Below, in pieces: positions 7,397 to 24,424 of a stretch of 64,000 bases of DNA. The stretch spans positions 4,351-68,350 of IMG/VR virus record IMGVR_UViG_2639763148_000001, one strand, 5' to 3'. The stretch's first letter is position 1. The number at the start of each line of letters is the position of its first letter. Origin of the DNA: a virus (taxonomy: Duplodnaviria; Caudoviricetes). A program made the position numbers and the translations under genes. Under the pieces are notes generated by a model. It had not been told where the DNA came from and made no database searches. It saw only the letters and a program-made list of their open reading frames with translations.

Positions 7397-7465
7397 CGGG
7401 CAACCTCACGCGTACGTGGTGGTTGCCCGGCCCAGAACCAGCGGCGGTAGTGCGCTATCAGACTA
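7397..7465 (-). promoter_or_regulatory. Late promoter (-10 TAGTCT), conserved leader hairpin and RBS-sequestering stem of the tape measure gene
   Basis: Motif GCTGGTTCTGGGCCG; CGGGCAACC/GGTTGCCCG stem covers the SD. Confidence 0.6.
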
Positions 7466-7789
7466 TCCGGCCCGGCCTCCCGACAGACGGGCGTCCTGCG
7501 CCGCGAGCTGCGCTGTCAACGCCATCGCCTGCGCCCGCGACATCCCCACCCCCGGCGCTGGCCGCCCACGTTCCGGACGACGGCCCCTCGGAGGCGCGTA
7601 CAGCCGGGACCGGTTCCGAGCCCGCTCGGCGTCGTCCTCGGCCGCCCGGTCCATGGAGACCTCAGCAGCGTTCAGGAGCCGGCAGACGGGCCAACGGCGG
7701 GGGTCGATGCCCTTGAGGGCGAGCGACCCGTCCCACGACTCCCACGACTCGGCGACGGAGGCGCAGAGTCGCTGGACGACCCAGTAGGG
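7463..7789 (-). CDS. Tail assembly chaperone, frameshift extension (gpGT-like)
   Basis: Protein-like -1 frame (PYWVVQRLCASVAESWESWDG...RLYAPP) begins at CGC CCT ACT of the upstream chaperone. Confidence 0.6.
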   Translation of the reverse strand, partial: PYWVVQRLCASVAESWESWDGSLALKGIDPRRWPVCRLLNAAEVSMDRAAEDDAERARNRSRLYAPPRGRRPERGRPAPGVGMSRAQAMALTAQLAAQDARLSGGRAG

Positions 7790-8220
7790 CGGCGCCCATA
7801 CACCTCCATCACGAACTCCATGAGCTGGACCAGGACGCGGTCGGGCAGCCGCATCCCGGCGTTCACGACCTCCGCGCCGACCTGTCCCTCTGCGGCCGAC
7901 TGGGCGTCAGCCTCGGTGCGGTAGGTGCCGGTCACGGTGTCGCCCACGCGCACTTCCCAGCGGGTGAAGACGGACGCCGACTCGGGGAGCATGAAGTCGG
8001 TGAGGAACGAGCGCAGGCTTCCGGTGATCGCGCGGAGGCGTTCTACGCTGATCGAGGCCAGGTCGCTCGGGTCGATGTTCGCGCCCTTGTAGGCCGCTTG
8101 CAGCTGCTCGTACGCGTCCAAGAATTGGTCGCTGTCCACCTCCGGGTAGAACAGCAGCTCAGTGCCGCCGACGTCGGCGACATGGTTCTCCGTGTTGAGC
8201 GCAAAGGACTTACGCGCCAT
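7672..8220 (-). CDS. Tail assembly chaperone (gpG-like)
   Basis: 182 aa, upstream of the tape measure; 'RPT' is followed by a low-complexity Ser/Pro tail. Confidence 0.75.
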   Translation of the reverse strand: MARKSFALNTENHVADVGGTELLFYPEVDSDQFLDAYEQLQAAYKGANIDPSDLASISVERLRAITGSLRSFLTDFMLPESASVFTRWEVRVGDTVTGTYRTEADAQSAAEGQVGAEVVNAGMRLPDRVLVQLMEFVMEVYGRRPTGSSSDSAPPSPSRGSRGTGRSPSRASTPAVGPSAGS

Positions 8221-8283
8221 GTGGACTACTCCGGTGTCCGTACCAACGCCCGGCCCAGAACCAGCAGCGTGTGCGCAAGGGTA
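8221..8283 (-). promoter_or_regulatory. Late promoter (-10 TACCCT) and conserved leader hairpin of the chaperone gene
   Basis: ACGCT-GCTGGTTCTGGGCCG-GGCGT. Confidence 0.6.
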
Positions 8284-8301
8284 GCCGTCGCGAGCGGTGC
8301 C

Positions 8302-8682
8302 CTACCGGCCGAGGCGCAGCGCCCGCTCGAGGAAGTTGTTCGCGCGGGTGCCGGGGTGCCGGACGAGCCGGGTGTAGACGACGTCACCGCCGACCTCGAA
8401 CCGCAGGACGCCGTTGCGGCGGCGCGGCCGGATGAGGTGAGGGCGGGTGCCGCCCAGGACATAGACGCTCGCCGGGTGCGTTGAGGTGATGACGCCGGCC
8501 AGCCCTCGCGGGACCTGTTCGATCCGCGTGACGATGCCGCGGCCCATCGAACCGGGGGCCTCACTGCGGGCGATGGCGGCAACCTTCTCGGTTCGTGCCC
8601 GCAGGCGCCGCTCCACGATGCCGCCGCGCAGGCGCAGCGCCCGCGCCAGCCGGCCCGGCTCCAGCCGCACTTCCACGCTCAT
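8302..8682 (-). CDS. Neck/tail completion protein (HK97 gp10-like)
   Basis: 126 aa, basic; 'GTRPHLIRPR', 'VRHPGTRANNFL'. Confidence 0.7.
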   Translation of the reverse strand: MSVEVRLEPGRLARALRLRGGIVERRLRARTEKVAAIARSEAPGSMGRGIVTRIEQVPRGLAGVITSTHPASVYVLGGTRPHLIRPRRRNGVLRFEVGGDVVYTRLVRHPGTRANNFLERALRLGR

Positions 8683-8688
8683 GGCGCA

Positions 8689-9273
8689 TCAACCTTCCGG
8701 GCACGCGTAGCAGCCGTACAGGCCCACGGTGACACGCTGCTCCAGGCCCACGCAGCCGCCGTCAGGGCCTACCGTCTTCGAGGCTCCGATGACGTAGCGG
8801 CGGCTCCCGGGCTTCGTCGTCGTCTGCGGGAGGCAGCACAGCAGCGCGTTGTAGACCGAGGCGAGATCCACGTGCAGCACCTTCGCCGCAGCGGCCAGGT
8901 CCTCGCATGAAGGCGGACACCCGTCGTCGGTCGGCCCGGGCACGCACCGCAGCAGGGTGATGACCAGCTCGACCGCCATGTACGTCGGCTGGGTGCAGCC
9001 GCGCAGGCCTCGGATCTCGCGGTCCTCGCTCGGGAAGCTGGTCGAGGGGAAGACGCGGGCGACGCTCACCGTCAGCTGGCCGCCGACCTGCGCCGGCGGC
9101 CCGCACGGGTCCTCGCACGAGTCCCACGACACCGTGCCCGGCACCAGGCAGGACCGGCAGGTGGGACAGCCAGGCTGTCCCGGCACATCTGTGGCGGCCT
9201 GGTCCAGCGCCACACAGATGCAGGCCAGGACGTCCTCGGCCAGGTCGTTGACGGCGAGAAGCTGTACGGCCAT
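8689..9273 (-). CDS. Putative tail terminator / connector protein
   Basis: 194 aa, Cys-rich; position; 'GPDGGCVG' motif. Confidence 0.55.
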   Translation of the reverse strand: MAVQLLAVNDLAEDVLACICVALDQAATDVPGQPGCPTCRSCLVPGTVSWDSCEDPCGPPAQVGGQLTVSVARVFPSTSFPSEDREIRGLRGCTQPTYMAVELVITLLRCVPGPTDDGCPPSCEDLAAAAKVLHVDLASVYNALLCCLPQTTTKPGSRRYVIGASKTVGPDGGCVGLEQRVTVGLYGCYACPEG

Positions 9274-9294
9274 GCAGGGCTCCTTGGGGCGCGG

Positions 9295-10107
9295 TCAGGG
9301 GATGCGCTGGACGCGAGGGCGCTTGAAGTCCGGAGAGTAGGCGCGTGACGCCGACTGCATCCGGTACGGGTTGACGGTGCTCAACCACAGGTCGACCAGT
9401 TGGAGGCCGGTGCGGCCTTCCTCGTAGATGGCTGTGGGGTCACCCATCTCGAGCTGGAGGCCCTGCCGCGTCACCCTGGACACGTTCCGGCCGGCGGCCG
9501 CGCACCCGCACGACCCGCCGCCGCAGCCCTTCAGCAGGTGGCACACGAGCTCCGACACGGCCGCGATGGCGGACTCGTCGAGCCGGAGCCCGGTCCGGTA
9601 CGTGACCGTCAGGGTGTCCTCCTCGCCGGACGCTGCGGCGAGATCCTGGCACGTCGGCCAACAGGCGCCGTCCGTACGGACGAGCGTCCCGGAGTTGTCG
9701 ACCCGGTACGCGTCCACCGCCAGGACGTCCGGCCCCTCCTGGACGCTCACGATGTCGTACACGGGACCCGGCAGGTAGATCTCGCACAGCTCCCCGCACG
9801 AGCAGTCGCCGGAGCAGCCGCAGACCGCCGCGTTGCGCCAGAGGCCGTCCGTGCCCAGGTACGGAATCCAGGGGCTGCCGTTGCTCCAGTCCGCCCAGGA
9901 ACGGGGCAGCACTTCCAGGCAGGCCCGGCGGCACGGCCGGACGGCCACCGGGCAAGACGGCCCCCAACGGCGCCCCGACAGGCGCCACAGGATCTGAGAC
10001 GCAACCGCGGTCATGCGGGTGACGAGAGCCGGATCGGTCTCGGCCACGTCGCAGCACAGCTCTACCGGCCAGGGCGAGCACACATCCTGCTGGAGCGGTG
10101 TCGTCAC
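9295..10107 (-). CDS. Head-to-tail adaptor
   Basis: 'ILWRLSGRRW', 'VTRQG', 'GRTGLQLVDLWLSTVNP' motifs; the start could also be 10119. Confidence 0.7.
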   Translation of the reverse strand: MTTPLQQDVCSPWPVELCCDVAETDPALVTRMTAVASQILWRLSGRRWGPSCPVAVRPCRRACLEVLPRSWADWSNGSPWIPYLGTDGLWRNAAVCGCSGDCSCGELCEIYLPGPVYDIVSVQEGPDVLAVDAYRVDNSGTLVRTDGACWPTCQDLAAASGEEDTLTVTYRTGLRLDESAIAAVSELVCHLLKGCGGGSCGCAAAGRNVSRVTRQGLQLEMGDPTAIYEEGRTGLQLVDLWLSTVNPYRMQSASRAYSPDFKRPRVQRIP

Positions 10108-10198
10108 CGAAGCCCCCACCTCTCGTACGTACGGACACCGGCAGCAGCTGCGGGGCGGTGTGACCGCCTCGCGGCTGCGTGCCGGCGTCCGGCGGGGA

Positions 10199-10903
10199 TC
10201 ACGGGGCGCAGACGCCGATGAGCGGAACCGGCTGGTAGTCGCAGGTGACGACCGGCGGCGCGATCGTCGTGATGAACGACCTCCTGTGACAGTTCTCGCC
10301 GAGCGGGGTCAGCATCGGCCCCGGAGTCTGGGCGACGTCGGCGGCCTGCACGTTGTACGGGCCGATGCCCCAGCGCGAGTTCGCCCGGGTCGAACCGGAC
10401 AGGACCAGGTTCACCGCCTCAGACCCGATCTCCAGGTCTCCGAGCTGGCCGTTCGTGACCCACGGCAGCAGGAAGTAGATCCAGGCTCCGTCTGTCGTAG
10501 GGGTGTTCGGGCAGACCTCCTCGCCGAGTACCTGCGCCCACAGCTCGATCGCGAACCCCGAGTCGCACTGGATCGAGCAGTCGTCGTAACCGATCAGCGC
10601 ACCGTCGAAGCCCGCGTAAGGGCTCTGCCCGGTCGTGAGCTCGATGAACTCGGGGCTGACCCCGTAGAAGGTCAGCTCGACGTCGTATCCGCGGAAGGAG
10701 GGGCAGCCCCGCTTGAAGCCGCAGACCTTTCCGTTCGCGGCCTTGTACTCGACGTCCGTGCCGTCCTCGGTGTTCACGTTCATGGCGAGCGTGGCGAAGC
10801 AGTCCAGCACGTAGCTGTTATCGGCGCCACAGACGACTCGGCCGCAGGAGTCGACGCGGGTGACACGGATGGTCTCCGCGTTGGCGATCAGGGGACAGGA
10901 CAC
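10199..10903 (-). CDS. Major tail (tube) protein
   Basis: GTG at 10903 with GGAGG SD; 'IRVTRVDSCGR', 'FAIELW', 'WGIGPYNV' resemble cluster-B-type tail tube proteins. Confidence 0.8.
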   Translation of the reverse strand: MSCPLIANAETIRVTRVDSCGRVVCGADNSYVLDCFATLAMNVNTEDGTDVEYKAANGKVCGFKRGCPSFRGYDVELTFYGVSPEFIELTTGQSPYAGFDGALIGYDDCSIQCDSGFAIELWAQVLGEEVCPNTPTTDGAWIYFLLPWVTNGQLGDLEIGSEAVNLVLSGSTRANSRWGIGPYNVQAADVAQTPGPMLTPLGENCHRRSFITTIAPPVVTCDYQPVPLIGVCAP

Positions 10904-11040
10904 GAGGGGCCTCCAACAAAGGGAGTTGGTGGCCCGGCCCACAACCAGCGGCGAAAGCAGTCGGCCGACCCCGGCGCCCGCCGGCGGTCTGCCCAGTGCG
11001 CTCGGCCCACAGCCAGCAGCGCACTATCAGGAGTCTAGCC
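10904..11040 (-). promoter_or_regulatory. Late promoter (-10 TAGACT) with two leader hairpins and an RBS-sequestering stem
   Basis: Motif copies at 11001-11019 and 10933-10951; GGGCCACCAAC/GTTGGAGGCCC stem. Confidence 0.62.
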
Positions 11041-11081
11041 TCCGGGCCCTCCCAGCGGCCCGTACGTGCCGTCAGGGGCCG

Positions 11082-11621
11082 TTACACCCCTTGCCCGGCC
11101 TCGACGGCGATCAGGTGGACCGTCGCCCCGACGAGCGGTTGGGGCACCTGCAGAACGCTGATGCCCAAAATCACTACGCCTGGGCTCTGCCGGACGTTGA
11201 CGGTGCACGAGGACGCGGACAGCGCGGTGACCCGGGCCTCCGTCGCGTTCGTGTTGGAGGTCTCCAGGCCGACGCTCACCACGGGCGCGACCGAGAAGGC
11301 AGGCGAGAAGGCGAACACCACGTCACCGGAGGCGTTGGACACGCCCTTGGCGGCGTACACGCGGCGGGCTGCGGTCGGAGCGACGACCCACCGGGTGCCG
11401 TCGGACTGCACCCTCCGCGCCCGACCGGCCGGGATCACCAGAGAAGCGGTCGGGGTGCCGTCGACCGAGAACGGGGTGGCGCCGACCGAGGACCACGTGA
11501 CCGCCGCGGTGCCCGTGTTCGTGAGGTCGTGCGTACGGCCCAGGACCGTCGTCGGGTCCGGCAGGGACTCCGCTGCGGTAGCGGCTTCGACGATCAAGGC
11601 GTCGGTATCGTGAAGGCTCAT
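11082..11621 (-). CDS. Putative virion fibre/appendage protein
   Basis: 179 aa, beta-rich, in the structural operon. Confidence 0.55.
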   Translation of the reverse strand: MSLHDTDALIVEAATAAESLPDPTTVLGRTHDLTNTGTAAVTWSSVGATPFSVDGTPTASLVIPAGRARRVQSDGTRWVVAPTAARRVYAAKGVSNASGDVVFAFSPAFSVAPVVSVGLETSNTNATEARVTALSASSCTVNVRQSPGVVILGISVLQVPQPLVGATVHLIAVEAGQGV

Positions 11622-11632
11622 CAGGTCCCCGC

Positions 11633-13510
11633 TCAGATCCAGTCGTCAAAGCTCTTGTTGGCCAGTCGGTTCAGGTTGGCAGCGGTCGCGGTCTTGGTCG
11701 CGGCCAGGCTCATCTCCGAGTCGAAGTGCACGAAGGCCCCGGTGTTGAGCGTCGCGCCGCCGGCGACCCGGCACCGCTGGGTGCAACCGCTCGCCGCCAC
11801 GTTCAGCGTGGCCCCCTGCTCGACCGTGCAGTCCCGGACGGGCTGCCCGACGACCCGGGCCCCGGTCACGGTCAGCAGGGACTGACCGCGCACGCTCATC
11901 GAGAAGACGTCGGCCAGGCCCGCGCCGGCGGAGCCGGTGAGGCCGGTCAGGGTGACCGTGGATAGGCCCTCGACCCGGTTGTTGCGGATCTGCTTCGCCG
12001 TCGCGTCGCCGCCCGTGTAGGTGACCGTGCACCCGGGGCCTACGTGGTTGCCGGTGAAGGCGGAGGCGCCCGACAGCCCGGAGTTCGCGTTGTTGATCGT
12101 GACGATGCCGCCCAGGATCTCGCAGTTGTCGATCCACCCGCCGTCGGTCGTGCCGGTGATGGTCACGACGCCCTCACCGACGACGGAGCTGCCCCGCACG
12201 ACGGAGCGGGAGACCAGGCTGGTGTTGCTGCCGGTCGTCGTGGAGAACGTGACCTGCGCCGGGCCCTCGATCCGCGACTGGTCGATGCGGTCGCCGATGG
12301 CCGCGACGACCGTCGCCGTGGTGCTCGACTCGGTCACCGTGGCGCCGCCGCCGACGTACGAGCCGACGCCCATCGACAGAGACCGGACGTCGGTGACCAC
12401 CATCGTGCCGTTGTCCAGCGTCCCGTTCTGAATGGTCAGGCTCCCCGTCGAGCCAGCCGCCAGGCGCAGCGTGCCGCCGCGGGTCTGGCACTGCGTAGCG
12501 ATGATCTGCCCGCTCCCCTGATGGTCGAACAGAGTGCCGGTGAACACGCCGGTCACGATGTCGCAGCGCCCGGAAACAGCCGTGCGGTCGATGCGGATGC
12601 CGTCGATGGTCGAGTTGGAGACGTTGACGCTGGCACCGGCCGGGCCGTCGATGGTCCACAGGGCGCCGAACGAGATATCGCAGTTGCCGATCGTCAGGGT
12701 CGGGTCGCCCAGATGCGTGATGCTGCCGCCGCCGGCAACGCCGCGCAGCCGGGAGTTCGCCACGCTCAGGGTCGTCACGACGGTCCCGGCCTGCGTGCGC
12801 AGGGTAGAGCCGCGCAGGTCCGAGTCCGTGATGGTGATGTTCTTCACGCTGCCCGGGTCATTGACCAGGGTGGCCTGGTAGAGCCGGCTGCCTGACTGGA
12901 CAGTGATGCCACCGGTCCCGCTGTTGGTCACGATCGAGCCGTGAAGCTGCGAGTTGCTGACCGTCATCGTCGGGCCGGTCGTGACGTTGCTCGCGTTCTC
13001 GATCCGGGCGTTGGTGATGAACCCCGAGGCCCAGCCGGTCATGTTGACCGTGGAGTTGGCGATCCGGCTCCCCGTGACCGAGCGGGCCGTGGCCGGGGCC
13101 GTGAGGGTCACGGAGTCGAACTCGTTCTCCGACCACGTCGCCGTGCCCCAGGGGAACGTGCCGAGGATCGGGCTGGTGCCGGTGGTGTCCCGCACCACGT
13201 TGTTGAGGTTGTCCCTCAGCTCGATCATCTGGCCGACCGCGCCGCGGTCGATGTCGAAGAGACCGGCCCATGCCTCGTTGTCGTACGGGGTCCAAACTTT
13301 GGCTTCAAGGGCGAGGACGGAGGCGGTGACTGCGTGCAGCTCGACCGTGTTCGGCCCGGCCAGGGTCGCCCCCTGTACCCAGTCGGTGACGATGTAATGG
13401 CACTGGGGGTCGAGGCTCCCGGCGTCGCGGAGGGCGATCAGCGCGGCGACCGTCATCGGGCCGGGGCATCCGGCCTGTGCGGGCGGGGTGAATGATCCGC
13501 TCGTGGACAT
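11633..13510 (-). CDS. Beta-helix-like structural protein (625 aa)
   Basis: ATG 13510 with AGGAGG SD; Thr/Gly/Ser/Val/Asn-rich parallel-beta repeats. The ORF-track extension to 14599 is out of frame with the real upstream gene. Confidence 0.7.
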   Translation of the reverse strand: MSTSGSFTPPAQAGCPGPMTVAALIALRDAGSLDPQCHYIVTDWVQGATLAGPNTVELHAVTASVLALEAKVWTPYDNEAWAGLFDIDRGAVGQMIELRDNLNNVVRDTTGTSPILGTFPWGTATWSENEFDSVTLTAPATARSVTGSRIANSTVNMTGWASGFITNARIENASNVTTGPTMTVSNSQLHGSIVTNSGTGGITVQSGSRLYQATLVNDPGSVKNITITDSDLRGSTLRTQAGTVVTTLSVANSRLRGVAGGGSITHLGDPTLTIGNCDISFGALWTIDGPAGASVNVSNSTIDGIRIDRTAVSGRCDIVTGVFTGTLFDHQGSGQIIATQCQTRGGTLRLAAGSTGSLTIQNGTLDNGTMVVTDVRSLSMGVGSYVGGGATVTESSTTATVVAAIGDRIDQSRIEGPAQVTFSTTTGSNTSLVSRSVVRGSSVVGEGVVTITGTTDGGWIDNCEILGGIVTINNANSGLSGASAFTGNHVGPGCTVTYTGGDATAKQIRNNRVEGLSTVTLTGLTGSAGAGLADVFSMSVRGQSLLTVTGARVVGQPVRDCTVEQGATLNVAASGCTQRCRVAGGATLNTGAFVHFDSEMSLAATKTATAANLNRLANKSFDDWI

Positions 13511-13518
13511 GGCGCCTC

Positions 13519-14643
13519 CTAGGCGGCGGGGTTGAGGAACTCCAGGCGGATGCGAACCGGAGTGGTGGCGCCGCTCTGATGGAAGAAGATCTGCGTACTG
13601 GACTGGGTCCGCACGTGCCCGAGTGCGGTGGTGGCGGGTCCGCTGATGTAGGTCAGCTTCACCGTCCAGCCGTTGGCGGTGACGTTGGACGTCACCGTGC
13701 CGCCGGGCAGGAGCGCCCCGGAGGTCGGCCACGTGACCGTGCCGAGCTGGGCGCTGCTCGCCGTCATGATCGCGTCGCCGCTGGAGTGCGGCGGGTTGCC
13801 GTACTCCAGCTCCACGACGTCGGCGCCGAGCCACTGCACGGTCGGGTTGCCCACCGTCGGGTCGTAGCAGCCTCCGCCCACGGCGGTGAGGCCGGTCGTC
13901 ACGCTGGGGGGCGGCACGAGGTTGCAGAGGTTCTCCCCGAGCAGGTCGATCCCGTCGTTGAAGAACTGGCCGGTGAGGAGGAAGTCGTCCAGGACGTTCG
14001 TCGGCGTGCCGTCGCCGTCGCACGGGCCGATGTCGGACAGGTGGACCAGGTTCCCCACCTCGTCGTACCACTCCAGCGCCCCGCTGCCTCGCCGTCGGCA
14101 GGGGAAGACGGGCCCGCGGGTGAAGGCCTCGACCTGGCGCAGCAGCGGCGAGCCTGCGCCCATCACCGCGACGTTCTGTTTGTGGAAGCCGTTGAAGCGG
14201 ACCCGGGCCACTCCGGACACCGGGGCGAAGTCCAGCGTGCGGGGCGGGGTGTTGTCGCCGATGGGGGCGGTGAGGTTCCACGGCGTCGTGAACAGGGGCG
14301 ACAGCCCGGCGTCGAGGAGCGTGACGGTGATCAGGCCGAAGCCGTCCTGATCGGTCAGTACGCCCCCGCCGCCGTTGTGCCAGCGGAGTCGCACCAGGTT
14401 GTTGACCGGCGCGGCGAAGACGTAGTCGAAGGCCGTGGTCGGGTTGGCGATGAGCTGCGCCTCGGTGACGGGCGGGGCGAAGCCGGACAGGTCGGCGCCC
14501 TCCGTCCCGTCGATCGTGGAGGCCAGGTTCGTGATGGGCAGGCCGGCCGGGTTCGCCGAGACGAGCACGTTGGCGAACAGCACCTCCCCGGCCGCGCACC
14601 GTTCCGGGGCGCCGGCCGGGCAGCAGTCACAGGGCACGGGCAT
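13519..14643 (-). CDS. Cys-motif structural protein, paralog A (374 aa)
   Basis: GAGGAGG SD; PCDCCP N-terminus; homologous to 14656-15333. Confidence 0.75.
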   Translation of the reverse strand: MPVPCDCCPAGAPERCAAGEVLFANVLVSANPAGLPITNLASTIDGTEGADLSGFAPPVTEAQLIANPTTAFDYVFAAPVNNLVRLRWHNGGGGVLTDQDGFGLITVTLLDAGLSPLFTTPWNLTAPIGDNTPPRTLDFAPVSGVARVRFNGFHKQNVAVMGAGSPLLRQVEAFTRGPVFPCRRRGSGALEWYDEVGNLVHLSDIGPCDGDGTPTNVLDDFLLTGQFFNDGIDLLGENLCNLVPPPSVTTGLTAVGGGCYDPTVGNPTVQWLGADVVELEYGNPPHSSGDAIMTASSAQLGTVTWPTSGALLPGGTVTSNVTANGWTVKLTYISGPATTALGHVRTQSSTQIFFHQSGATTPVRIRLEFLNPAA

Positions 14644-14655
14644 GGCGGCGCCTCC

Positions 14656-15333: not shown

Positions 15334-15362
15334 ATCGTCACCGCCTGCGATACGATGTTTGC

Positions 15363-18800: not shown

Positions 18801-20920
18801 GGGGCCGGGGCCTGGCCCCAGAACGCGGCGTTGGACAGGATGGCGCCGGTCTCGGCGTTCTGCCACGACTCGATCGCGCCGGCCTCGCAGATCGGCGACC
18901 ACAGCTCATCCGTGCAGAGGGTGGTGGTCTCATCCACGGTGACGACGCAGGTGTCATCGTCCGTGGTCGCGGTGGCGCGCAGGTCGGGGCGGTCGATGTA
19001 CGCCCTCATGTCGGTGAACAGGCCACCGCGGTTCGCCCCGAACGGGTTCGTCGTGGACAGCGCCAGGGTGTAGGTAGAGCCGCCGTTGAGCGGGATCGTC
19101 TGGGAGAACTGGGTCCAGGCGTTCGGGCCGCCGTTGCTGGTGACTGACGGCGGGTTGGTGACGTCGTCGATCAGGTCGCCGTTCTGGGCGTCGTCCGTGT
19201 CGCCGTTGTCCAGCGTGATCCGGTGCGTCTCGCCGGGGTCACGCGAGCCGTGCACCACCCGGATGATGAAGTTCGCGGACGCGGGCGCCACGAACGTCTG
19301 CCAGATCGTCGACAGGCCGCCAGGGGGCGCGCCGTCTGACGTCATCTCCTGGACCGGGGTACCGCGCGGGGTCGGCGTGACGTTCTGCCCGTTGACCTGG
19401 TCGGCGCCCCAGATTTCGAAGGTGCGACCGATGTCGTTGGTCTCCCAGCCGCGGTTCGCGACGTTCGTGCAGTTCGCCCGGTTGGCCGGTTGGTTGATCG
19501 GGTACGTGTTGTTGTCCTGCCGGCCCAGCAGGTGGAAGCCGTAGTTGCCCTGGGACACCGGCGGGTTCAGCGGCGGGGTCTCGTTGTACGCGGGGTTGGT
19601 GACGAGGTCCTGGCCGCCGTTGTAGACCAGCTCGATCAGGTCCGGCGGGCTCTGGTCCAGGCGCAGGCACTCGATGTGGATCTGCATCGGTGCGGCGGTG
19701 CCGCAGATCACCTGACCGGCGTTCGGGTTCGTGACGGTGACCGTCGCCGCTGACGGGACACGGGCATCGATGAAGCTCGTGAGGTCCTGGCGGAACTGCT
19801 CGCCGTCGGGGTCGGCGACGTCCCAGACGATGTTCGCCGCGCTCGTGACCTGGTCGACCTGGAGCGACTGGACCGCGAATCCCGGGTTGATCGGGAGGGT
19901 GATGTCGTACTGGCGGCCGGGGTGGTCGACCGGGCCTGTGGCCGTGGTGGTGCGGTGGAACGCGACAGGCTCCAGACAGCCCGTCTCGCCGGGGCACGGC
20001 ATGAGGGTGCCCTGCGCTACGTAGGGGGTGCCCGTCGCCGGGTCCACGAAGGTAGGCGGACCCGTCGGGGCGCCGGCCGCGTCGTACTCCCACACGGCCA
20101 TCGCGGTACCGGCGATCGTCCCGTCAGGAAGCGTGTCGCACAGAAGGATCTGCTCGACGTCGACCGCGTCCGCCCCGGCGCCGCCCGAGTCACACGGCTG
20201 CGGGTTGAAAGGCGGCGTGGTCACGGGTGCCTCCTGGGTGGTGAACGAGCACTCCGGGGTGACGAGGTACTCGCCGGCGGTCTGTGCCTGCTCGGTGAGC
20301 CGGGCTCGGTAGTAGTACGTCGTCCCGGCGGTCAGCCCGGTGAAGCTGTGGTCGGGCGCGAAGGAGACGACCGGCTCCGAGGGTGCAGCGGTGTACGGGC
20401 CGCCCGGGGCTGTGGCGATCTCCCAGACGATGGAGTCCTGGTTGCAGGGGGCGGTGATGTTCGTGCGGCCGGAGATGGCGCCGAGCGTGACGTCGGCGGT
20501 GGTCTGCGTCGTCGTCGGCCCCAGGCACGTGAAGACGGGGTACGCCTGGGTGTGCGTCGGCCCGCACACGAAGCGGTCGACCTCACCGCCGCCTGGGCCG
20601 TGGAGGATGATCTCCAGCCAGTAGTCCGTGTTCGCGAGGAGCTCGGTCGGGCCGCCGACGCCGAACACGGTCGAGTTGACGCCGCCCGGGGCGAGCCGGT
20701 TGTCCGGGTCCGGGGAGCACTCGTTGCCGGGAGAGGTGAGGACGGCCGGGGTGAACGGGCCGAGGGCGGCCGTGCCGATGTTGATCTCGAACTCGTAGTT
20801 CCCGGCCTGTCCGGGTAGCCACGGCGCCGAGTTGATGTCGTGCGTGATCGTCTGGCGCCACCAGTTCCGGTCGATGGCCGCGGTGGCGCCGCAGTCGAAG
20901 AACCCGTTCGGGGAGGCCAT
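15830..20920 (-). CDS. Giant Cys-repeat structural protein (1696 aa) with FN3-like domain
   Basis: ATG 20920; 'FTGLTAGTTYYYR' FN3 signature; at least 10 copies of LCD...F.R...G..Y.P.GTV..C. Confidence 0.75.
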   Translation of the reverse strand: MASPNGFFDCGATAAIDRNWWRQTITHDINSAPWLPGQAGNYEFEINIGTAALGPFTPAVLTSPGNECSPDPDNRLAPGGVNSTVFGVGGPTELLANTDYWLEIILHGPGGGEVDRFVCGPTHTQAYPVFTCLGPTTTQTTADVTLGAISGRTNITAPCNQDSIVWEIATAPGGPYTAAPSEPVVSFAPDHSFTGLTAGTTYYYRARLTEQAQTAGEYLVTPECSFTTQEAPVTTPPFNPQPCDSGGAGADAVDVEQILLCDTLPDGTIAGTAMAVWEYDAAGAPTGPPTFVDPATGTPYVAQGTLMPCPGETGCLEPVAFHRTTTATGPVDHPGRQYDITLPINPGFAVQSLQVDQVTSAANIVWDVADPDGEQFRQDLTSFIDARVPSAATVTVTNPNAGQVICGTAAPMQIHIECLRLDQSPPDLIELVYNGGQDLVTNPAYNETPPLNPPVSQGNYGFHLLGRQDNNTYPINQPANRANCTNVANRGWETNDIGRTFEIWGADQVNGQNVTPTPRGTPVQEMTSDGAPPGGLSTIWQTFVAPASANFIIRVVHGSRDPGETHRITLDNGDTDDAQNGDLIDDVTNPPSVTSNGGPNAWTQFSQTIPLNGGSTYTLALSTTNPFGANRGGLFTDMRAYIDRPDLRATATTDDDTCVVTVDETTTLCTDELWSPICEAGAIESWQNAETGAILSNAAFWGQAPAPVPGPCPAAASSGDGGSVAANLAYTYPVCATVGGVRTNLQRVVITDASGGVLADTFIGPDGGPVPTPSSYDIGSCTDTAFMNDAILCDDNGPFLRKFVQAVSDVGQPQVKAFGNFTLAGAAYAPVGTVRNCGGDTELVELCDVQPTGASIPFVRRLTYDQTGEVISAENQDADGNPYNPTGLVTVCSQVTREHEIVCDDNGPFLRTFVSVGGVSVITTDTLLDGTTPYAPTGTVRICDAACDPVTTTGLCLADGTPIGVVTRRDCDTGTLIQDGWINLLTGAFTAGPPPAGTMSCSSSQSVQVSGIFCDVDGNGDVQGLVLIEYHYAADGTIDSVRLVNATTGATYVPVGTVTTCPADVEQPDADLAILCDIQPDGSSIPFVRDYRRDQNNTITSVSNYTLAGAPYVPTGTVGTCSPTDCTNTTTLLVCDIPTDDPDGAPTVTNTNQQFIPDIPTADFVQRPGGGGALWTGGVINFGPDVSTGPGITQVHRYVAATLQAPAPACTDGTVHVSLSVETQNLGPGAGCSGAGRFRLFRVSDGAVLNAGSTLFGTPVGQTDVLTIEADIAATELDTGNVAVWLDVETFQTGTCAPPDGKQWQARNFTAAYAYNVDGCEIQFFRTVVTDCETGETLATVDTTPEGAPYVVTGEVGACTSSGSSGSPCPCVTADDIGQAVADAQVTADTETQILCDVNAGVATAFRRSTVHDATGTVVTVRDTNLAGTAAYVPTGTVGLCSGRDSESVILCDSAANPNRFIRTYTYNAAGAVTGFTDTTLAGAAFVPTGAVGVCAQTVQSDTDFVEEILCDSAGTAFIRLFRFNSTTGALISTTNTTLAGAAFAPVGAVGLCSDCCGTVIGNGCTNTGSGFYTAIRATNGTISLIDSVSGATILAASIVPCVDDDTPVTLTAQGRVLTNATPWTPGGDVAGTLTSLTVTGTSGLWDLVDANGTALTGLPAGLTLTWNAEDNNQLTGPVSVTPQAGATVVANWTQR

Positions 20921-20922
20921 GA

Positions 20923-21405
20923 TCAGGCCCCTTCGGGGTGCTTCTGGCGGCGGTGCCCGGCGAGGCCTCGCTCCGTCGCGTACGGGCGGCCACAGTCCTC
21001 GCACTGGTGGTCGCCGGCCGCGTCCTCCGCAGCCTGGGCGGTCTCCTCGCCGTCCGTGAGCTCCGGCATCGGGGAAGCGTCCAGAGCGACGGCGTCAGGG
21101 GCGTACGCCTCGTCGGGGAGCGCCGGAAGCGCCTCCCCCACCTCTTCGTCGGTCCCGATCTCCACCACGTCGGTGAAGGCGAGCGGCGCGACAGCGGGCG
21201 CCGCTGCGTCCTCGTCTGGCGAGACGTAGCGGTGCCCGTCAACCATGGAGCCGATCAGCAGCTCCTCGGGGATGTCCTGGAACGCGGCCGGGGGGACGGC
21301 GAACGACGTACTCGACAGCGTGCGGACCTTCGGCCGCTGCTGGGTGGCCCACTCGGCGAACGCGCGCCGCTTCTCCGGGGTGGGCTTCACACGAATCACG
21401 ATCAC
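20923..21405 (-). CDS. Hypothetical protein with C-terminal C2H2-like zinc finger
   Basis: 160 aa; 'CEDCGRPYATERGLAGHRRQKH'; GGAGG SD. Confidence 0.7.
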   Translation of the reverse strand: MIVIRVKPTPEKRRAFAEWATQQRPKVRTLSSTSFAVPPAAFQDIPEELLIGSMVDGHRYVSPDEDAAAPAVAPLAFTDVVEIGTDEEVGEALPALPDEAYAPDAVALDASPMPELTDGEETAQAAEDAAGDHQCEDCGRPYATERGLAGHRRQKHPEGA

Positions 21406-21415
21406 GGTTCCTCCG

Positions 21416-22234
21416 TCAGCACAACGTGACCCGTACGGCCGCGGCGCGGCAGCACGCGATCTCTACGACGAATCCGGCTTCGACCAGCACCCTGCGGTCG
21501 TTGGTGCGGATGTCCACGGACGCACCATCGGTGTCCGGTACGGGCACGGGAGCTTCGCGGCGGATCCGGATGGGGCTGGTGGCGTACAGCCACGCCTCGC
21601 CCGGGTCCGGGACGGTGCAGTCCGGTGGGCCGACGTTGGCCGCATAACCGGAGCCCAGGACGATGCAGTTCCCGACCAGGGTGCGCGGGGCGCCGGTGTC
21701 GGTGTGGACGATGTTGCAGCAGCCGAGGAGCGCCCCGACGCCGACAGGGACGTGGAGCACTCCGGTGCCGCCGTACTCGGTGCCCAGCCAGGTCTCCAGG
21801 ACGCCGACGCCCTGGGCGACGGACACGGCGCCGGCCGCCGGGGTCAGGTCCTCGCCGATCTGGCACAGCACGTTGGTGAGGAACCACTCTTCGAGCGCCC
21901 GCTGCTCCCCCATCCGGAGAGTCTCGGTGGCGTGCTGCAGCGCCTCGCTGTACGAGAAGCCCGGGGCCGAGCACTCGGCCCCGGCGTAGATCGTCACCGG
22001 CGCAGCCGAGCAGACCTCGGGGCGGGTGAACTCCTTCGCCGGGACCGTCTCGTTGTCGGGCGGGCACCACGTGGTGTCGTGGGCGTCAGCGCACGACAGC
22101 GGGAGCCACTCGGTCCCGAGGAGCTCGTGGGTGTCGGTGACGTCGATGACCGTGGTGCAGCCCGTCAGGATGCCGTGCGGCAGCGGGTTCCCTGGGACGG
22201 CCTCGACGTACCGGCGCAGGCCTGCTGAGGGCAT
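21416..22234 (-). CDS. Second capsid protein (major capsid pentamer-like)
   Basis: 272 aa directly after the MCP; 'GEQRALEEWF', 'YGGTGVLH', 'WLYATSP' as in cluster-B-type pentamer proteins. Confidence 0.65.
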   Translation of the reverse strand: MPSAGLRRYVEAVPGNPLPHGILTGCTTVIDVTDTHELLGTEWLPLSCADAHDTTWCPPDNETVPAKEFTRPEVCSAAPVTIYAGAECSAPGFSYSEALQHATETLRMGEQRALEEWFLTNVLCQIGEDLTPAAGAVSVAQGVGVLETWLGTEYGGTGVLHVPVGVGALLGCCNIVHTDTGAPRTLVGNCIVLGSGYAANVGPPDCTVPDPGEAWLYATSPIRIRREAPVPVPDTDGASVDIRTNDRRVLVEAGFVVEIACCRAAAVRVTLC

Positions 22235-22235
22235 T

Positions 22236-22304
22236 TCAGATCCCCCCTGCCGGGCGGCTCGTGCGGCGTGCGGCGGCCGTAGGCGCGTGGCGGGTGTTCA
22301 GCAC
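22236..22304 (-). CDS. Putative 22-codon coupling mini-ORF
   Basis: GAGGAGGTGA SD, GTG start, stop in TGA-A-ATG junction with the pentamer gene. Confidence 0.35.
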   Translation of the reverse strand: MLNTRHAPTAAARRTSRPAGGI

Positions 22305-22380
22305 TGCCTCACCTCCTCGGTGGGGACACGGCGGGCCCGGTCAGGTACACGGGCCCGCCGCGCGCTTCGGGGGGTGGAGG

Positions 22381-24018
22381 TCAGGCCGCGGGGCAGGTCA
22401 GGAGCGTCTGGGCTCCGGACTCGCCGGACGGGCAGACCGGGACGGTGACGAACCGGGTGTCGACGGAGCGGTCGATCAGCGCGACGCACTCCTCGCTGAA
22501 GGTCGCCGTGAAGTCGTTGGTGCTGAAGCGGGTCGAGTCGTGGACCACGCCCAGGTTGACCTCGGCTCCGCGCCCGATCTGGAGCTGGCCCGCCGGGTAG
22601 ATCAGGAAGTTGACGACCGCCGGCCAGTCCGTGGCGGGGGTGGCGCCGCCGATGTCGGTCGGGACGCCCGGGGCGAGACCGCGGGCCCACTGGATGCGGA
22701 CGCCGAGCGGCGTGAACACGGCCTGGACGTCGGCGGTGGTGACCTCTTCGATGCCGACGCCGTTGCGGCGGGCCAGGTCGGCGAGGAAGAGATTCCTCGA
22801 CCACCAGGGGAAGACCACTTCGAGGGCGATCGACTCGCAGAGGCTGTGCCGTTCGATCATGTCGGCGGCCTGGAGCGCGACGGCGGCGAACACCGAGGAC
22901 AGGGCGCCGAACGTGGCGCCGATGGTGACGGCGGTGGCTCCGGCGACCGCCTGGTTGAACAGCTCCTGCCGGATGCGGATCTCGTGCGCGACCATCTGGT
23001 TCCGCAGGTACCAGGCGGTCAGCTCCGGGAAGTGCCTCTGGGTCAGGATGCCGGACTCCAGGCAGATCCCGACGGCCTCGCAGCGGACTTCCAGCGGGTC
23101 CGGGCACGGGATCTGGAAGCAGGGCTTGGTCGCGCCGGCGATGTCGTCGGCCTCGGTGTGCACCCAGGTCAGGGCGGCGACGTCGAGGGTCGGGGTCTTG
23201 AAGTAGCGGAGGCCACCGCGCGCGAGCTGGATCTCGGGCGCGTCCCAGAGCATGTCCGGGCAGGCCACGTCGGCGATGTCGTACACCGTCTCGGACGGCG
23301 CACACCAGCCGCCGGACGCGACCAGGTCGCCCTGCGGGAGGCGCCGCTGGCTCGAGGCCGTCAGCGTGGCCAGCGTGCCTTCGGGGACCGAGCCGGCGTC
23401 GGTGACGATCGACTCCTCCGGGAACGGGTGCGTGTACGAGGCGACCTGGGAGGAGCCGCCGCCGACGGTCTTGAGGGCGTTGGCGCGGGCGATGACGCCC
23501 GCGGTGAGGTCGTCGAAGTTGATCGGGCTGCCGGGCTTGTGGCCGGGGACGTCCACGGACGCGGTGATCCGGGTCACCGGCTTGTCGACCTCGGCGGGCA
23601 GGACCAGGCGCTGGCGGGCGCGGATCGCGGACAGGTTCAGCGCCGGGCGGGCCGGCGGTGCCGCGGCCACGACGGTCTCCGGCTCCGGCTCGTCGGCGGA
23701 AGCGGTGGCCTCCGGCTCGGGCGCGGGGTCGGGCTCGACAGCCGGCTCGACGGCGGCCGCCACTTCCTCGCCGCGCACCTGCGCGGCCAGGGCGTCGATC
23801 TCGGCAGCGGCGGTTGCGGCGGCCTCCAGGCGGGTGGCCTGCTCGGCGCGGATGTCGGTGACGGCCGCCGCGATCGTCCGCATCTCCTCCAGGTCGGTCG
23901 CGCTGACGCTGGTGCTGGTGGAGCGCGCTTCGAACGCGGCGACGGCGCCGTCGAGGAGCGCGGACAGCTCGTCGTCGTTCAGGTTGCTGTAGCTCTCGGG
24001 GAGCTCGAACGGGTCCAT
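22381..24018 (-). CDS. Major capsid protein (hexamer) with N-terminal scaffold-like domain
   Basis: 545 aa; coiled-coil N-terminus; 'ASGGWCAPSETVYD' motif. Confidence 0.88.
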   Translation of the reverse strand: MDPFELPESYSNLNDDELSALLDGAVAAFEARSTSTSVSATDLEEMRTIAAAVTDIRAEQATRLEAAATAAAEIDALAAQVRGEEVAAAVEPAVEPDPAPEPEATASADEPEPETVVAAAPPARPALNLSAIRARQRLVLPAEVDKPVTRITASVDVPGHKPGSPINFDDLTAGVIARANALKTVGGGSSQVASYTHPFPEESIVTDAGSVPEGTLATLTASSQRRLPQGDLVASGGWCAPSETVYDIADVACPDMLWDAPEIQLARGGLRYFKTPTLDVAALTWVHTEADDIAGATKPCFQIPCPDPLEVRCEAVGICLESGILTQRHFPELTAWYLRNQMVAHEIRIRQELFNQAVAGATAVTIGATFGALSSVFAAVALQAADMIERHSLCESIALEVVFPWWSRNLFLADLARRNGVGIEEVTTADVQAVFTPLGVRIQWARGLAPGVPTDIGGATPATDWPAVVNFLIYPAGQLQIGRGAEVNLGVVHDSTRFSTNDFTATFSEECVALIDRSVDTRFVTVPVCPSGESGAQTLLTCPAA

Positions 24019-24083
24019 GCGAGGGTCTCCAGGTCTTCACGTTGGAGACCCGGCCCAGAACCAGCGGTCGACTGAAATAGTAG
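24019..24083 (-). promoter_or_regulatory. Late promoter (-10 TACTAT), leader hairpin and RBS-sequestering stem of the MCP gene
   Basis: GACC-GCTGGTTCTGGGCCG-GGTC; perfect 9-bp GGGTCTCCA/TGGAGACCC stem over GGAG. Confidence 0.62.
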
Positions 24084-24227
24084 CCGCCTCGGCCTTGCAG
24101 AGGGCGCCTGGTCGCGCTACTGCGCGGATACTACGCCTCGGCATCCCCAACCGGCGCGGACGCACTGCACCCCCGGAGCCCGCCCGGGGAAGGGGCTCCA
24201 GGGGTGCAGGTCGATGCGATGCGCGGG

Positions 24228-24404
24228 TCAGTCGGCGCTGAGCGTTGTGACGTGGCTTCCGGGGTAACGCTCGGCCACGACGTGGGCGCTTTCCTCGTCG
24301 GTGCTCTGGTAGACGGAGCGCCCGCTGGCGGCGATGACCGCGTATCGGGGCGGCTTGGGTGCGGGGGGCGTGCCCTTGACGTCGTGGGGACAGTTGCAGG
24401 CCAT
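24228..24404 (-). CDS. Small MACxC protein, paralog 2 (58 aa), probably leaderless
   Basis: MACNC...VIAASGRSVY...VAERYP; TAGACT 7 nt before ATG. Confidence 0.6.
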   Translation of the reverse strand: MACNCPHDVKGTPPAPKPPRYAVIAASGRSVYQSTDEESAHVVAERYPGSHVTTLSAD

Positions 24405-24424
24405 GCCGCCGAGTCTAGCCAGGC

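What the first reader, a model, noticed from the sequence alone, without database searches (positions are those of the whole stretch)
7397..24083. Conserved leader RNA hairpin competing with an RBS-sequestering stem: candidate translational ON-switch for virion genes
Seen: the - strand motif GCUGGYUSUGGGCCG occurs in five places. These are before tape measure (box 7426-7444), tail chaperone (8249-8267), major tail (10933-10951 and 11001-11019) and major capsid (about 24049-24067). Each leader begins shortly after a GG(C/A)-TAnnnT -10 hexamer with no clear -35. The flanks differ but always pair: GCC/GGC, ACGCU/GGCGU, GCC/GGC, AGUGCGCU/AGCGCACU, GACC/GGUC. This is covariation around a conserved bulge, a GGYU/GGCC inner stem and a short loop. 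In all four gene-proximal copies the 3' arm is also the 5' arm of a second stem that buries the SD: CGGGCAACC/GGUUGCCCG, GGGCCACCAAC/GUUGGAGGCCC, GGGUCUCCA/UGGAGACCC, and a weaker GGGC.UUGGU/ACCGG..GUCC. The two folds are mutually exclusive. Variants may lie at about 4-26 (GCCC-AGC-GGCUCUGUGGCC-GGGC) and about 30778-30795. Established: phage Mu Com is a Zn-finger protein that activates mom translation by disrupting an RBS-occluding hairpin. Inference: a phage factor binds this hairpin and co-activates translation of structural genes. Candidates are the small Zn proteins at 30856-31113, 28423-28668 and 20923-21405. I do not recognise the motif as a described family.
Basis: partly seen in the sequence, partly recalled or inferred. 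Interest (0 to 1): 0.88.

Follow-up and report, generated by a model that had tools for sequence, protein, structure and literature searches.

The report
Late-gene leader RNA hairpin, Streptomyces phages
Several virion genes of this Streptomyces prophage start with the same small RNA hairpin next to a second hairpin that covers the ribosome-binding site, an apparently undescribed control tag shared by many related phages whose reader molecule is still unknown.

Summary
GCTGGYTSTGGGCCG occurs exactly five times in the window, all on the - strand. Two more copies lie just outside it on the same contig.

The same element sits before capsid, major-tail, chaperone, tape-measure and minor-tail genes of TurkishDelight, Woodruffvirus phages, 57 of 74 IMG/VR relatives and prophages in 8 of 150 other same-genus genomes.

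It behaves as sense-strand RNA. The 3-bp outer stem and the 1:14 pair keep pairing through compensatory and G.U changes, with no A.C. Loops are UNUG, GNUA or UNAG.

The hairpin ends 25-36 nt before the start codon in 95 of 111 sites. It usually follows a -10-only promoter. Its 3' arm is the first three bases of a second stem that pairs the SD, more often than in shuffles.

By energy alone hairpin 1 is marginal and hairpin 2 dominates. A trans factor is therefore plausible but unshown.

Only one of its three candidate proteins (20923-21405, C2H2) has relatives in both phage clades.

No Rfam family or paper was found. This scan noted the same element earlier on two other genomes.

The parts
24077..24082 (-). 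-10-like hexamer TACTAT (preceded by GGC) before the capsid leader
   Evidence: Read. Family-wide, 86 of 115 sites have TAnnnT ending 9-17 nt before the hairpin, against a shuffled mean of 6.8.
24047..24069 (-). Hairpin 1, capsid copy (outer stem GACC/GGUC)
   Evidence: Exact motif. Scores 35.8 bits with model R2.
24023..24051 (-). Hairpin 2, capsid leader: GGGUCUCCA/UGGAGACCC pairs the SD. The ATG is at 24016-24018.
   Evidence: MFE fold of the leader.
11032..11037 (-). -10-like hexamer TAGACT (GGCTAGACT) before the distal major-tail copy
   Evidence: Read.
10995..11025 (-). Hairpin 1, distal major-tail copy with an 8-bp outer stem AGUGCGCU/AGCGCACU
   Evidence: Fold energy -17.7 kcal/mol, z -2.86.
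10932..10952 (-). Hairpin 1, proximal major-tail copy (GCC/GGC), with no -10 of its own
   Evidence: 39.3 bits.
10907..10935 (-). Hairpin 2, major-tail leader: GGGCCACCAAC/GUUGGAGGCCC. The GTG start is at 10901-10903.
   Evidence: MFE fold.
8278..8283 (-). -10-like hexamer TACCCT (GGCTACCCT) before the chaperone leader
   Evidence: Read.
8246..8270 (-). Hairpin 1, tail-assembly-chaperone copy (ACGCU/GGCGU). The ATG is at 8218-8220.
   Evidence: Hairpin 2 is weak here.
7460..7465 (-). -10-like hexamer TAGTCT (GGATAGTCT) before the tape-measure leader
   Evidence: Read.
7425..7445 (-). Hairpin 1, tape-measure copy (GCC/GGC)
   Evidence: 36.9 bits.
7397..7429 (-). Hairpin 2, tape-measure leader: CGGGCAACC/GGUUGCCCG. 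The ATG is at 7394-7396.
   Evidence: MFE fold.
20923..21405 (-). Candidate reader protein (a lead only). It has a conserved N-terminal domain and a C-terminal C2H2 zinc finger.
   Evidence: Relatives found in 5 of 5 phage records and 60 sources (the window and 59 loci). The zinc finger is invariant in 34 relatives. Pfam zf-C2H2 scores below its cut-off.

Best explanation
This is a family of cis-acting leader RNA elements for abundant virion genes of Streptomyces siphophages (TurkishDelight-like and Woodruffvirus-like).

Each unit has three parts:
1. A -10-only promoter.
2. A roughly 21-nt irregular hairpin, H1. It has a 3-bp outer stem of variable sequence, a bulged G, one Watson-Crick pair (1:14), a bulged U, a GGY/GCC stem, and a UNUG, GNUA or UNAG loop.
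3. A second hairpin, H2. Its 5' arm begins with the same three bases (G15-G16-Y17) that form the 3' arm of H1's outer stem. Its 3' arm holds the Shine-Dalgarno sequence.

Shown here: the RNA-level structure of H1, its fixed distance to the start codon, and the shared three bases.

Inferred: H1 is the operator for a trans-acting RNA-binding factor, probably phage-encoded. The best lead is the 20923-21405 protein family. Binding would lock the outer stem, remove the basal G-C pairs of H2, and so raise translation of the virion genes together. This works in the manner of Mu Com on mom, without homology to it.
For: H1 is real and widespread:
- 5 exact copies in the window; 0 of 100 shuffles reach the 9 matches found at up to 2 mismatches.
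- 7 of the 9 exact copies in the genome cluster in 26 kb on one strand.
- The same element lies at the same gene starts in TurkishDelight and in YDN12, Mischief19, phiSAJS1 and Xkcd426.
- 57 of 74 IMG/VR capsid relatives carry it, with 89 sites on the gene strand and 3 on the other.
- Prophages in 8 of 150 other same-genus genomes carry it.

It acts as RNA:
- In 106 distinct sites the outer pairs are 97, 99 and 98% paired, against 90, 95 and 88% when flanks are permuted; 0 of 1000 permutations reach this.
- The pair types are C-G, U.G, U-A and A-U at the first pair, and G-C, G.U and A-U at the third. No A.C occurs.
- On a core-anchored 115-row alignment, 0 of 500 shuffles reach the observed value for 4 of 5 measures, and slid controls pair at 50% or less.
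- With position 1:14 left free, 126 context-supported sites are all Watson-Crick (CG 119, AU 5, UA 1, GC 1). Of 19 sites without context, 8 do not form a standard pair and 2 more are G.U.
- RNAalifold on 20 capsid leaders predicts H1.

Link to translation:
- H1 ends 25-36 nt before the start codon in 95 of 111 sites, median 32.
- H2 has mean dG -10.9 kcal/mol and mean z -1.41. The SD is paired 0.75 against 0.54 in shuffles.
- Bases 15-17 pair downstream 3 of 3 in 68% of 94 sites, against 44% in shuffles (maximum 57%, 60 shuffles).
- In the distant L081-L086 group the 5' flank is itself an SD mimic, AGGAGUCC.

Need for a factor:
- In 89 full leaders P(outer stem) is 0.008 and P(15-17 paired downstream) is 0.82.
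- The unpaired bases are highly conserved.

Precedent: Com binds a hairpin next to the translation-inhibition structure of mom (PMC6483171, passages read).
Against: - No transcript, 5' end, binding or expression data exist. No RNA run was listed.
- The overlap between H1 and H2 is only 3 bases. The enrichment over shuffles is moderate (68% against 44%).
- H2 is weak in some copies: the chaperone leader has z +1.03 and the L002 leader z +1.26.
- In some capsid leaders most of the SD lies in the H2 loop (L104 and L023, read).
- Distal tandem copies have no H2.
- The predicted 5' end at -3 to -7 fits a 5'-end-protecting stem equally well.
- No recognised RNA-binding domain was found in 41 window ORFs.
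- The match between tail type and loop type rests on two clades, which amounts to one evolutionary event.
- Sites are related by descent, so shuffle tests overstate significance.
Confidence: 0.4

Rival explanations
1. H1 is a 5'-terminal stabiliser or processing signal. H1 pairs the first bases of each late transcript and shields it from 5'-end-dependent RNases, and H2 is an independent protective or tuning stem. There is no switch. The conserved loop and bulges would serve a host RNA-binding or RNase-blocking factor.
For: 86 of 115 sites have a -10 hexamer ending 9-17 nt before H1. The predicted 5' end is therefore 0-4 nt from the outer stem. Capsid and major-tail genes are bracketed by very strong hairpins (z -5.5 and -3.5), so they look like insulated high-expression units. 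That 5' stems stabilise bacterial mRNAs is recalled knowledge, not read here.
Against: A stabiliser does not explain the tight 25-36 nt spacing to the start codon. It does not explain the sharing of bases 15-17 with H2. It does not explain copies that lie 20-40 nt or more from the promoter, or second in a tandem pair (29 of 115 sites lack a hexamer in the 9-17 nt window). By energy H1 is marginal: about -5 kcal/mol with z near +1 for three window copies.
Confidence: 0.25
2. H1 is a translational repressor operator of the MS2-coat or RegA type. A late protein would bind H1 stacked on H2 and keep the SD closed, giving feedback control of virion protein amounts.
For: The architecture is the same as in the main model, and H2 is the default fold. 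Operator hairpins with bulges are typical of phage coat-protein repression (recalled). The candidate 20923-21405 gene lies inside the virion gene block.
Against: The outer stem competes with H2, and it is the outer stem that is kept by covariation. This fits a state in which H2 is weakened, not strengthened.
Confidence: 0.1
3. H1 is a transcription-level RNA signal of the nut/boxB, put or TAR type. The nascent hairpin would load a factor onto RNA polymerase so that it reads through the strong hairpins between late genes.
For: H1 lies at the start of each unit. Strong terminator-like hairpins separate the units. Woodruffvirus relatives of 20923-21405 carry an RKRAPRRPRK-type basic patch.
Against: There are seven to ten copies per genome. 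Each lies 25-36 nt before a start codon and is coupled to an SD stem. Capsid and tail units are short and end at a hairpin, so little is left to read through. No NusG-like or N-like family was found.
Confidence: 0.1
4. H1 is a DNA site: a stoperator-like or operator site for a repressor or activator, lying just downstream of late promoters.
For: The motif is asymmetric and in one orientation relative to transcription (89 to 3). The window is a prophage and TurkishDelight encodes an immunity repressor.
Against: Within-site complementarity is kept through C-G to U-A and A-U changes. G.U is tolerated (46 cells) but A.C never, which is strand-specific. A 1-nt insertion is tolerated in the Woodruffvirus tape-measure copies. 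No copy lies in early regions. The YDN12 record carries the element but lists no integrase or repressor.
Confidence: 0.05

Closest known systems
Phage Mu Com protein and the mom translation-inhibition structure (PMC6483171, passages read)
   Same: A small hairpin lies immediately 5' of, and overlaps, a stem that hides the translation start signals. In Mu, protein binding to the hairpin exposes them.
   Different: There is no sequence relation. H1 loops (UNUG, GNUA, UNAG) lack Com's CC(N)2-3GAG motif. No Com-family protein was found. This phage has seven copies controlling the virion genes, not a single gene. Binding and activation are not shown.
Lambda-type nut sites (boxB hairpin with N protein) and HIV TAR/Tat (recalled; TAR is also discussed in PMC6483171)
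   Same: A short, bulged, sequence-conserved hairpin lies at the 5' end of transcripts. A basic-patch protein is one candidate partner.
   Different: H1 lies at a fixed distance from start codons and is coupled to an SD stem. No boxA was looked for. There are many copies per genome. There is no evidence for antitermination.
Mycobacteriophage L5 stoperators (recalled, not read here)
   Same: A multi-copy asymmetric motif lies in short intergenic regions, in one orientation relative to transcription.
   Different: Stoperators are DNA sites spread over early and late genes. H1 shows RNA-type covariation and is confined to virion-gene leaders.
Start-associated sequences of cluster K mycobacteriophages (recalled, not read here)
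   Same: A repeated motif lies just upstream of many start codons in an actinophage.
   Different: As recalled, SAS lies a few bases from the start codon and is not a covarying hairpin. H1 ends 25-36 nt upstream.
Promoter-stem-loop cassettes (PeSL) of T4-type phages (PMC2839356, seen only in the listing)
   Same: Repeated intergenic cassettes combine a promoter with a stem-loop.
   Different: They are early rather than late, have a different host and sequence, and were proposed to mediate shuffling. They are not coupled to an SD stem.

Membership tests
Mu Com / mom TIS system | Com-family CCCC zinc-finger protein encoded by the phage | tested here: not met
   No Pfam Com family among 41 window ORFs scanned. 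Unrelated Cys-rich small proteins do exist (28423-28668, 30856-31113).
Mu Com / mom TIS system | Protein-binding hairpin directly 5' of, and overlapping, a stem that occludes the SD or start codon | tested here: met
   The architecture is present. Bases 15-17 are shared by H1 and H2 in 64 of 94 sites (3 of 3 bases) and in 86 of 94 (2 or more). This is above shuffles. Protein binding itself is not shown.
Mu Com / mom TIS system | Loop motif CC(N)2-3GAG recognised by Com (PMC6483171) | tested here: not met
   H1 loops are UNUG (54), GNUA (21) or UNAG (11) in 86 context-supported sites.
Mu Com / mom TIS system | Binding activates translation | not testable with these tools
   Needs reporter or toeprint experiments.
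Lambda-type nut (boxA-boxB with N) | Regular 5-bp stem with a GNRA-like pentaloop, one or two sites per genome at the starts of operons | tested here: not met
   H1 has two bulges. It occurs 7 times in this prophage and 9 to 10 times in TurkishDelight. Each copy lies 25-36 nt before a start codon.
L5-type stoperators | One orientation relative to transcription | tested here: met
   89 sites on the gene strand against 3 on the other in 74 IMG/VR loci. All 7 own copies are on the - strand.
L5-type stoperators | Double-stranded DNA site spread over early and late operons | tested here: not met
   No hit in the early part of the window or in L118 and L119. G.U-tolerant, A.C-free covariation points to sense-strand RNA.
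Cluster K start-associated sequences | Motif a few bases upstream of the start codon (position recalled) | tested here: not met
   H1 ends 25-36 nt upstream, median 32.
Any Rfam 15 family | Match at the family's gathering score, or any E-value of 10 or less at the motif | tested here: not met
   The only gathering-score hit in the window is a tRNA at 37620-37690. Nothing lies at the motif in 7300-11200 at E up to 10.
5'-terminal mRNA stabiliser hairpins | Stem within a few bases of the transcript's 5' end (recalled criterion) | tested here: inconclusive
   The predicted start is at -3 to -7 from the position of the hexamer. No 5'-end data exist.

The most novel reading that the evidence does not exclude
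H1 is the operator of a phage-wide late translational regulon. A dedicated phage protein would read the hairpin on every abundant virion mRNA and open the adjacent SD stem. That protein is possibly the conserved 20923-21405 family, which carries a C2H2 zinc finger in one clade and an arginine-rich patch in the other. Capsid, tail tube, chaperone, tape measure and minor tail proteins would then be switched on together after transcription. This would be a Com- or Tat-like logic scaled up to a whole virion gene set in actinophages.
Probability: 0.2. Interest if true: 0.85.

Novelty: new variant of a known kind. Interest (0 to 1): 0.66.

Why it matters
The element would be a new RNA family with well over 100 distinct instances and clear covariation. 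It marks the late virion genes of a large group of Streptomyces phages and prophages.

It gives a directly testable handle on how actinophages time and dose virion protein synthesis, about which very little is known.

It is a compact promoter-plus-leader cassette that could be useful for expression control in Streptomyces.

It also offers a way to find an unknown RNA-binding regulator by pull-down or phylogenetic profiling.

Tried and rejected
RNA-seq: the look-up of sequencing runs listed no RNA holder. Read laying was therefore not used, and there are no 5'-end or expression data.

Rfam: nothing at the motif.

Literature:
- 'Streptomyces phage' plus TurkishDelight gave 0 papers.
- Six 13-nt motif strings gave 0 papers.
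- Keyword searches gave nothing relevant.
- The cluster BG announcement PMC5511901 has no occurrence of repeat, motif, promoter, lytic, temperate or integrase.
- PMC11302927 only cites the phiSAJS1 paper in its reference list.
- Supplements were not consulted.

Class-level genome search with R2: none of the 145 genomes from other genera matched at E <= 0.001, nor did the 5 sampled same-genus genomes, under strict filters. This is a sample, not proof of absence.

Thermodynamics: H1 alone is not more stable than shuffles for three of the five window copies. Stability cannot be used as evidence for it.

Fixed-column covariation for H2: not possible. The 3' arm shifts relative to the SD, and RNAalifold did not recover H2. 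Per-sequence folds with shuffles were used instead.

Candidate protein:
- The AlphaFold model of 20923-21405 has pLDDT 82.6.
- Foldseek against PDB gave no match at E <= 0.001 for the N-terminal domain. The C-terminus superposes on classical C2H2 fingers over only 26 residues, with E above 1.
- The VIA-align wide search gave Z <= 5.3 to generic alpha/beta domains.
- No function can be read from this.
- PHROGs lists only unknown-function families for it and its neighbours.

Consensus terminator and promoter scans found nothing useful. The inverted-repeat listing was uninformative.

The exact copy on C35 is a chance match in coding-like sequence.

Rows: the 115-row alignment A2 keeps probable chance hits (L013 7611-7643, L065 1707-1739, L096), so nothing was dropped. 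One search used the 106 of 113 distinct sites that have G directly before the core.

Full report
THE OBSERVATION

The 15-mer GCTGGYTSTGGGCCG occurs exactly five times in the window, all on the - strand, at 7428, 8251, 10935, 11003 and 24051. With up to 2 mismatches there are 9 matches against 2.33 expected, and 0 of 100 shuffles reach 9.

The window is C24:30144-94143 of a 9.2-Mb, 390-contig genome, so this is a prophage. Nine exact copies exist in the whole genome. Seven of them lie within 26 kb of C24, all on the - strand, and two lie just outside the window. The copy on C35 is a chance match inside coding-like sequence.

Reading the sequence shows what each copy precedes:
- tape measure (ATG at 7396);
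- tail assembly chaperone (ATG at 8220);
- major tail (GTG at 10903), with two copies 68 nt apart;
- major capsid (ATG at 24018);
- two tail-region genes outside the window.

Four of the five window copies are preceded by GG(C/A)TAnnnT. No -35/-10 promoter is found in 7000-25000.

RELATIVES

The nearest phage record is Streptomyces phage TurkishDelight, about 68% identical in DNA. It carries the motif on the gene strand before capsid, major tail (two copies), chaperone, tape measure (two copies) and three minor-tail genes.

More distant relatives were found through the capsid protein: YDN12, Mischief19, phiSAJS1 and Xkcd426. They carry variant cores at the same places. Examples are CTGGCGTTAGGCCG and, before the tape measure gene, a form with a one-base insertion.

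Other occurrences:
- Of 74 IMG/VR loci encoding capsid relatives, 57 have at least one strict-pattern site on the capsid strand. There are 89 sites on that strand and 3 on the other.
- A covariance model built from 20 copies matched in prophages in 8 of 150 other same-genus genomes.
- A second model built from 115 copies matched none of the 145 genomes from other genera in a sample of the class, nor any of the 5 sampled same-genus genomes. This is a sample searched with strict filters.
- Within the window the model finds only the five copies. It finds none in the early regions of TurkishDelight or YDN12.

IS IT RNA?

I number the core G0 C1 U2 G3 G4 Y5 K6 N7 W8 R9 G10 G11 C12 C13 G14.

In 106 distinct sites anchored only on the core, three flank pairs (-1:15, -2:16, -3:17) are paired in 97, 99 and 98% of sites. 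With flanks permuted between sites the figures are 90, 95 and 88%, and 0 of 1000 permutations reach the observed values. From the fourth pair outward, pairing is near random.

The pair types are as follows:

| Pair | Types seen |
|---|---|
| -1:15 | C-G 64, U.G 28, U-A 10, A-U 1 |
| -3:17 | G-C 72, G.U 18, A-U 13, C-G 1 |

No A.C or C.A occurs at either pair. G.U tolerated and A.C never seen is the signature of pairing in the sense-strand transcript, not of a double-stranded DNA site.

On the 115-row alignment A2, the named structure is 83.2% paired against 79.6% in shuffles. For 4 of 5 measures 0 of 500 shuffles reach the observed value. Slid controls reach 50% at most.

I then left positions 1 and 14 free and chose sites by context only, that is, by a promoter hexamer and/or an SD plus start codon at the right distance. 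All 126 such sites are Watson-Crick at 1:14 (CG 119, AU 5, UA 1, GC 1). Of 19 sites without such context, 8 do not form a standard pair and 2 more are G.U.

Loops come in three forms, UNUG (54), GNUA (21) and UNAG (11). Positions 6 and 9 are U/G or G/A in all but one of 113 distinct sites. Different forms can occur within one genome (L043, L087 and L014). RNAalifold on 20 capsid leaders predicts H1.

These sites share descent, so the shuffle counts overstate independence. However, the compensatory changes come from several separate loci and gene positions.

LINK TO TRANSLATION

H1 ends 25-36 nt before the start codon in 95 of the 111 sites for which a start was found (of 115 in all), with a median of 32. 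The four proximal window copies are 30-32 nt away.

In 94 proximal sites the stretch from base 15 to the start codon folds with mean -10.9 kcal/mol and mean z -1.41; 32% of sites have z below -2. The SD is paired 0.75 against 0.54 in shuffles.

Bases 15-17 are the 3' arm of H1's outer stem. They pair downstream in all three positions in 68% of sites and in at least two positions in 91%. When the rest of the leader is shuffled the means are 44% and 73%, with maxima of 57% and 84% over 60 shuffles.

So the two stems compete for three bases. The H1 core itself can coexist with H2.

In the distant L081-L086 group (about 30% capsid identity), three things line up:
- the 5' flank, AGGAGUCC, repeats the real SD region;
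- the 3' flank, GGGACCUCC, is the anti-SD;
- the real SD lies about 35 nt downstream.

This is an explicit arrangement of an anti-anti-SD, an anti-SD and the SD.

In the window, H2 is clear for tape measure, major tail and capsid. It is weak for the chaperone.

ENERGETICS

In partition-function folds of 89 full leaders, P(outer stem) is 0.008, P(core pairs) is 0.11, P(15-17 paired downstream) is 0.82 and P(SD unpaired) is 0.25.

H1 alone folds at about -5 kcal/mol with z near +1 for three window copies. Only the 8-bp distal major-tail copy is clearly stable, at -17.7 kcal/mol and z -2.86.

So a structure that evolution clearly preserves is not the one that forms by itself. Together with the conserved bulges and loop, this argues for a partner that stabilises it. 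This step is inference.

PROMOTER

86 of 115 sites have TAnnnT ending 9-17 nt before G0. The shuffled mean is 6.8 with a maximum of 15, and a control window 26-40 nt upstream gives 7. G stands two bases before the hexamer in 69 of the 86.

If transcription starts at the seventh base after the hexamer (a recalled rule), the 5' end falls at -3 to -7, at the foot of the outer stem.

Most of the other 29 sites are second copies of a tandem pair or have a hexamer 20-40 nt upstream with an extra hairpin in between.

Capsid and major-tail genes are bracketed by very strong G+C-rich hairpins at 10129-10192 (z -5.5) and about 24165-24205 (z -3.5). They look like insulated units.

WHO READS IT?

Pfam scans of 41 window ORFs found no sigma factor, NusG-like, Com-like or known RNA-binding domain.

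- Only 20923-21405 has relatives in all five phage records and in 60 sources of both clades (the window and 59 loci).
- 28423-28668 (29 other loci) and 30856-31113 (11 other loci) are confined to the TurkishDelight-like clade.

The 20923-21405 family has three parts: a conserved N-terminal domain of about 65 residues, an acidic linker, and an invariant C-terminal C2H2 finger in 34 relatives. In Woodruffvirus-like phages the finger is replaced by a basic patch such as RKRAPRRPRK.

Finger-type proteins go with UNUG-type loops: 24 loci have that type only, 2 have both types, 1 has GNUA only, and 13 have none by the strict pattern. Non-finger tails go with GNUA loops in 19 of 19 complete cases; one further non-finger row, L048 with a UNUG loop, is a protein cut off at the contig end. 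This contrast is between two clades, which amounts to one evolutionary event, so it is only a lead.

The model of the protein (pLDDT 82.6) gave no informative fold match for the N-terminal domain.

Two other proteins are conserved. A small MxCxC protein just upstream of the capsid leader is present in six of six phages. A WhiB-like gene outside the window is shared with TurkishDelight, YDN12 and phiSAJS1, and it may serve the -10-only promoters; that last point is inference.

COMPARISON WITH KNOWN SYSTEMS

The closest working analogue is Mu Com and mom. Com binds a short hairpin next to the translation-inhibition structure, and binding exposes the start signals (PMC6483171; abstract, introduction and discussion passages read).

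This element is not a member of that system:
- it shows no sequence relation;
- the Com loop motif is absent;
- no Com-family protein was found;
- it has many copies, not one.

Four other comparisons rest on my own knowledge:
- stoperators are excluded by the RNA-type covariation and by the restriction to late leaders;
- start-associated sequences are excluded by position;
- a nut-like role is unlikely, given the fixed spacing to start codons;
- a role as a 5' stabiliser remains a serious rival.

NOVELTY

No Rfam family matches. No paper was found in the searches named above.

Two earlier follow-ups of this scan described the same 'late-gene leader RNA hairpin of Streptomyces phages' on other genomes. 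My tests here were made independently and agree with them.

VERDICT

The hairpin and its coupling to an SD stem are real and conserved. The trans factor and the direction of control are inferred.

Noticed in passing
window 10129-10192 (-), about 22325-22365 (-), about 24165-24205 (-): Very strong G+C-rich hairpins without U tracts lie after the major tail gene (-58 kcal/mol, z -5.5), after the capsid gene, and just upstream of the capsid promoter (z -3.5). They are probably terminators or insulators that make capsid and major tail single-gene units.
   Followed up: partly
window 20923-21405 (-) and relatives in 59 loci: This protein family swaps its C-terminal module between clades. One clade has a classical C2H2 zinc finger and the other a basic RKRAPRRPRK-type patch. 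The swap goes in parallel with the loop type of the leader hairpin. Some members have an extra internal Cys/His knuckle.
   Followed up: partly
window 24425-24631 (-): A small 60-68 aa protein starting MxCxCxK lies directly upstream of the capsid promoter and hairpin. It is conserved in all six phages compared. Its function is unknown.
   Followed up: partly
window 28423-28668 (-): An 81-aa protein with two CxxC pairs lies between the portal and MuF genes. It is present in 29 other loci of the TurkishDelight-like clade only.
   Followed up: partly
G000:C24:118765-119145 (outside the window): A WhiB-like gene of the prophage is shared with TurkishDelight, YDN12 and phiSAJS1. It is a possible activator of the -10-only late promoters.
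   Followed up: no
L013 7611-7643 (-), Xkcd426: An orphan copy of the hairpin core lies on the opposite strand behind a terminator-like hairpin. It has no pairing flanks and no gene start. It may be a remnant.
   Followed up: no
L079 about 9900-9990: The most distant capsid relative has a tandem pair of a different motif (GACGGGCTGGRGCCG) upstream of its capsid gene. It may be a diverged counterpart.
   Followed up: no
L045 and L046, about 9900-9960: A tandem pair of hairpins has A1-U14 in place of C1-G14 and a G-C in place of the usual C-G at the second outer pair. This is a doubly compensated variant.
   Followed up: partly
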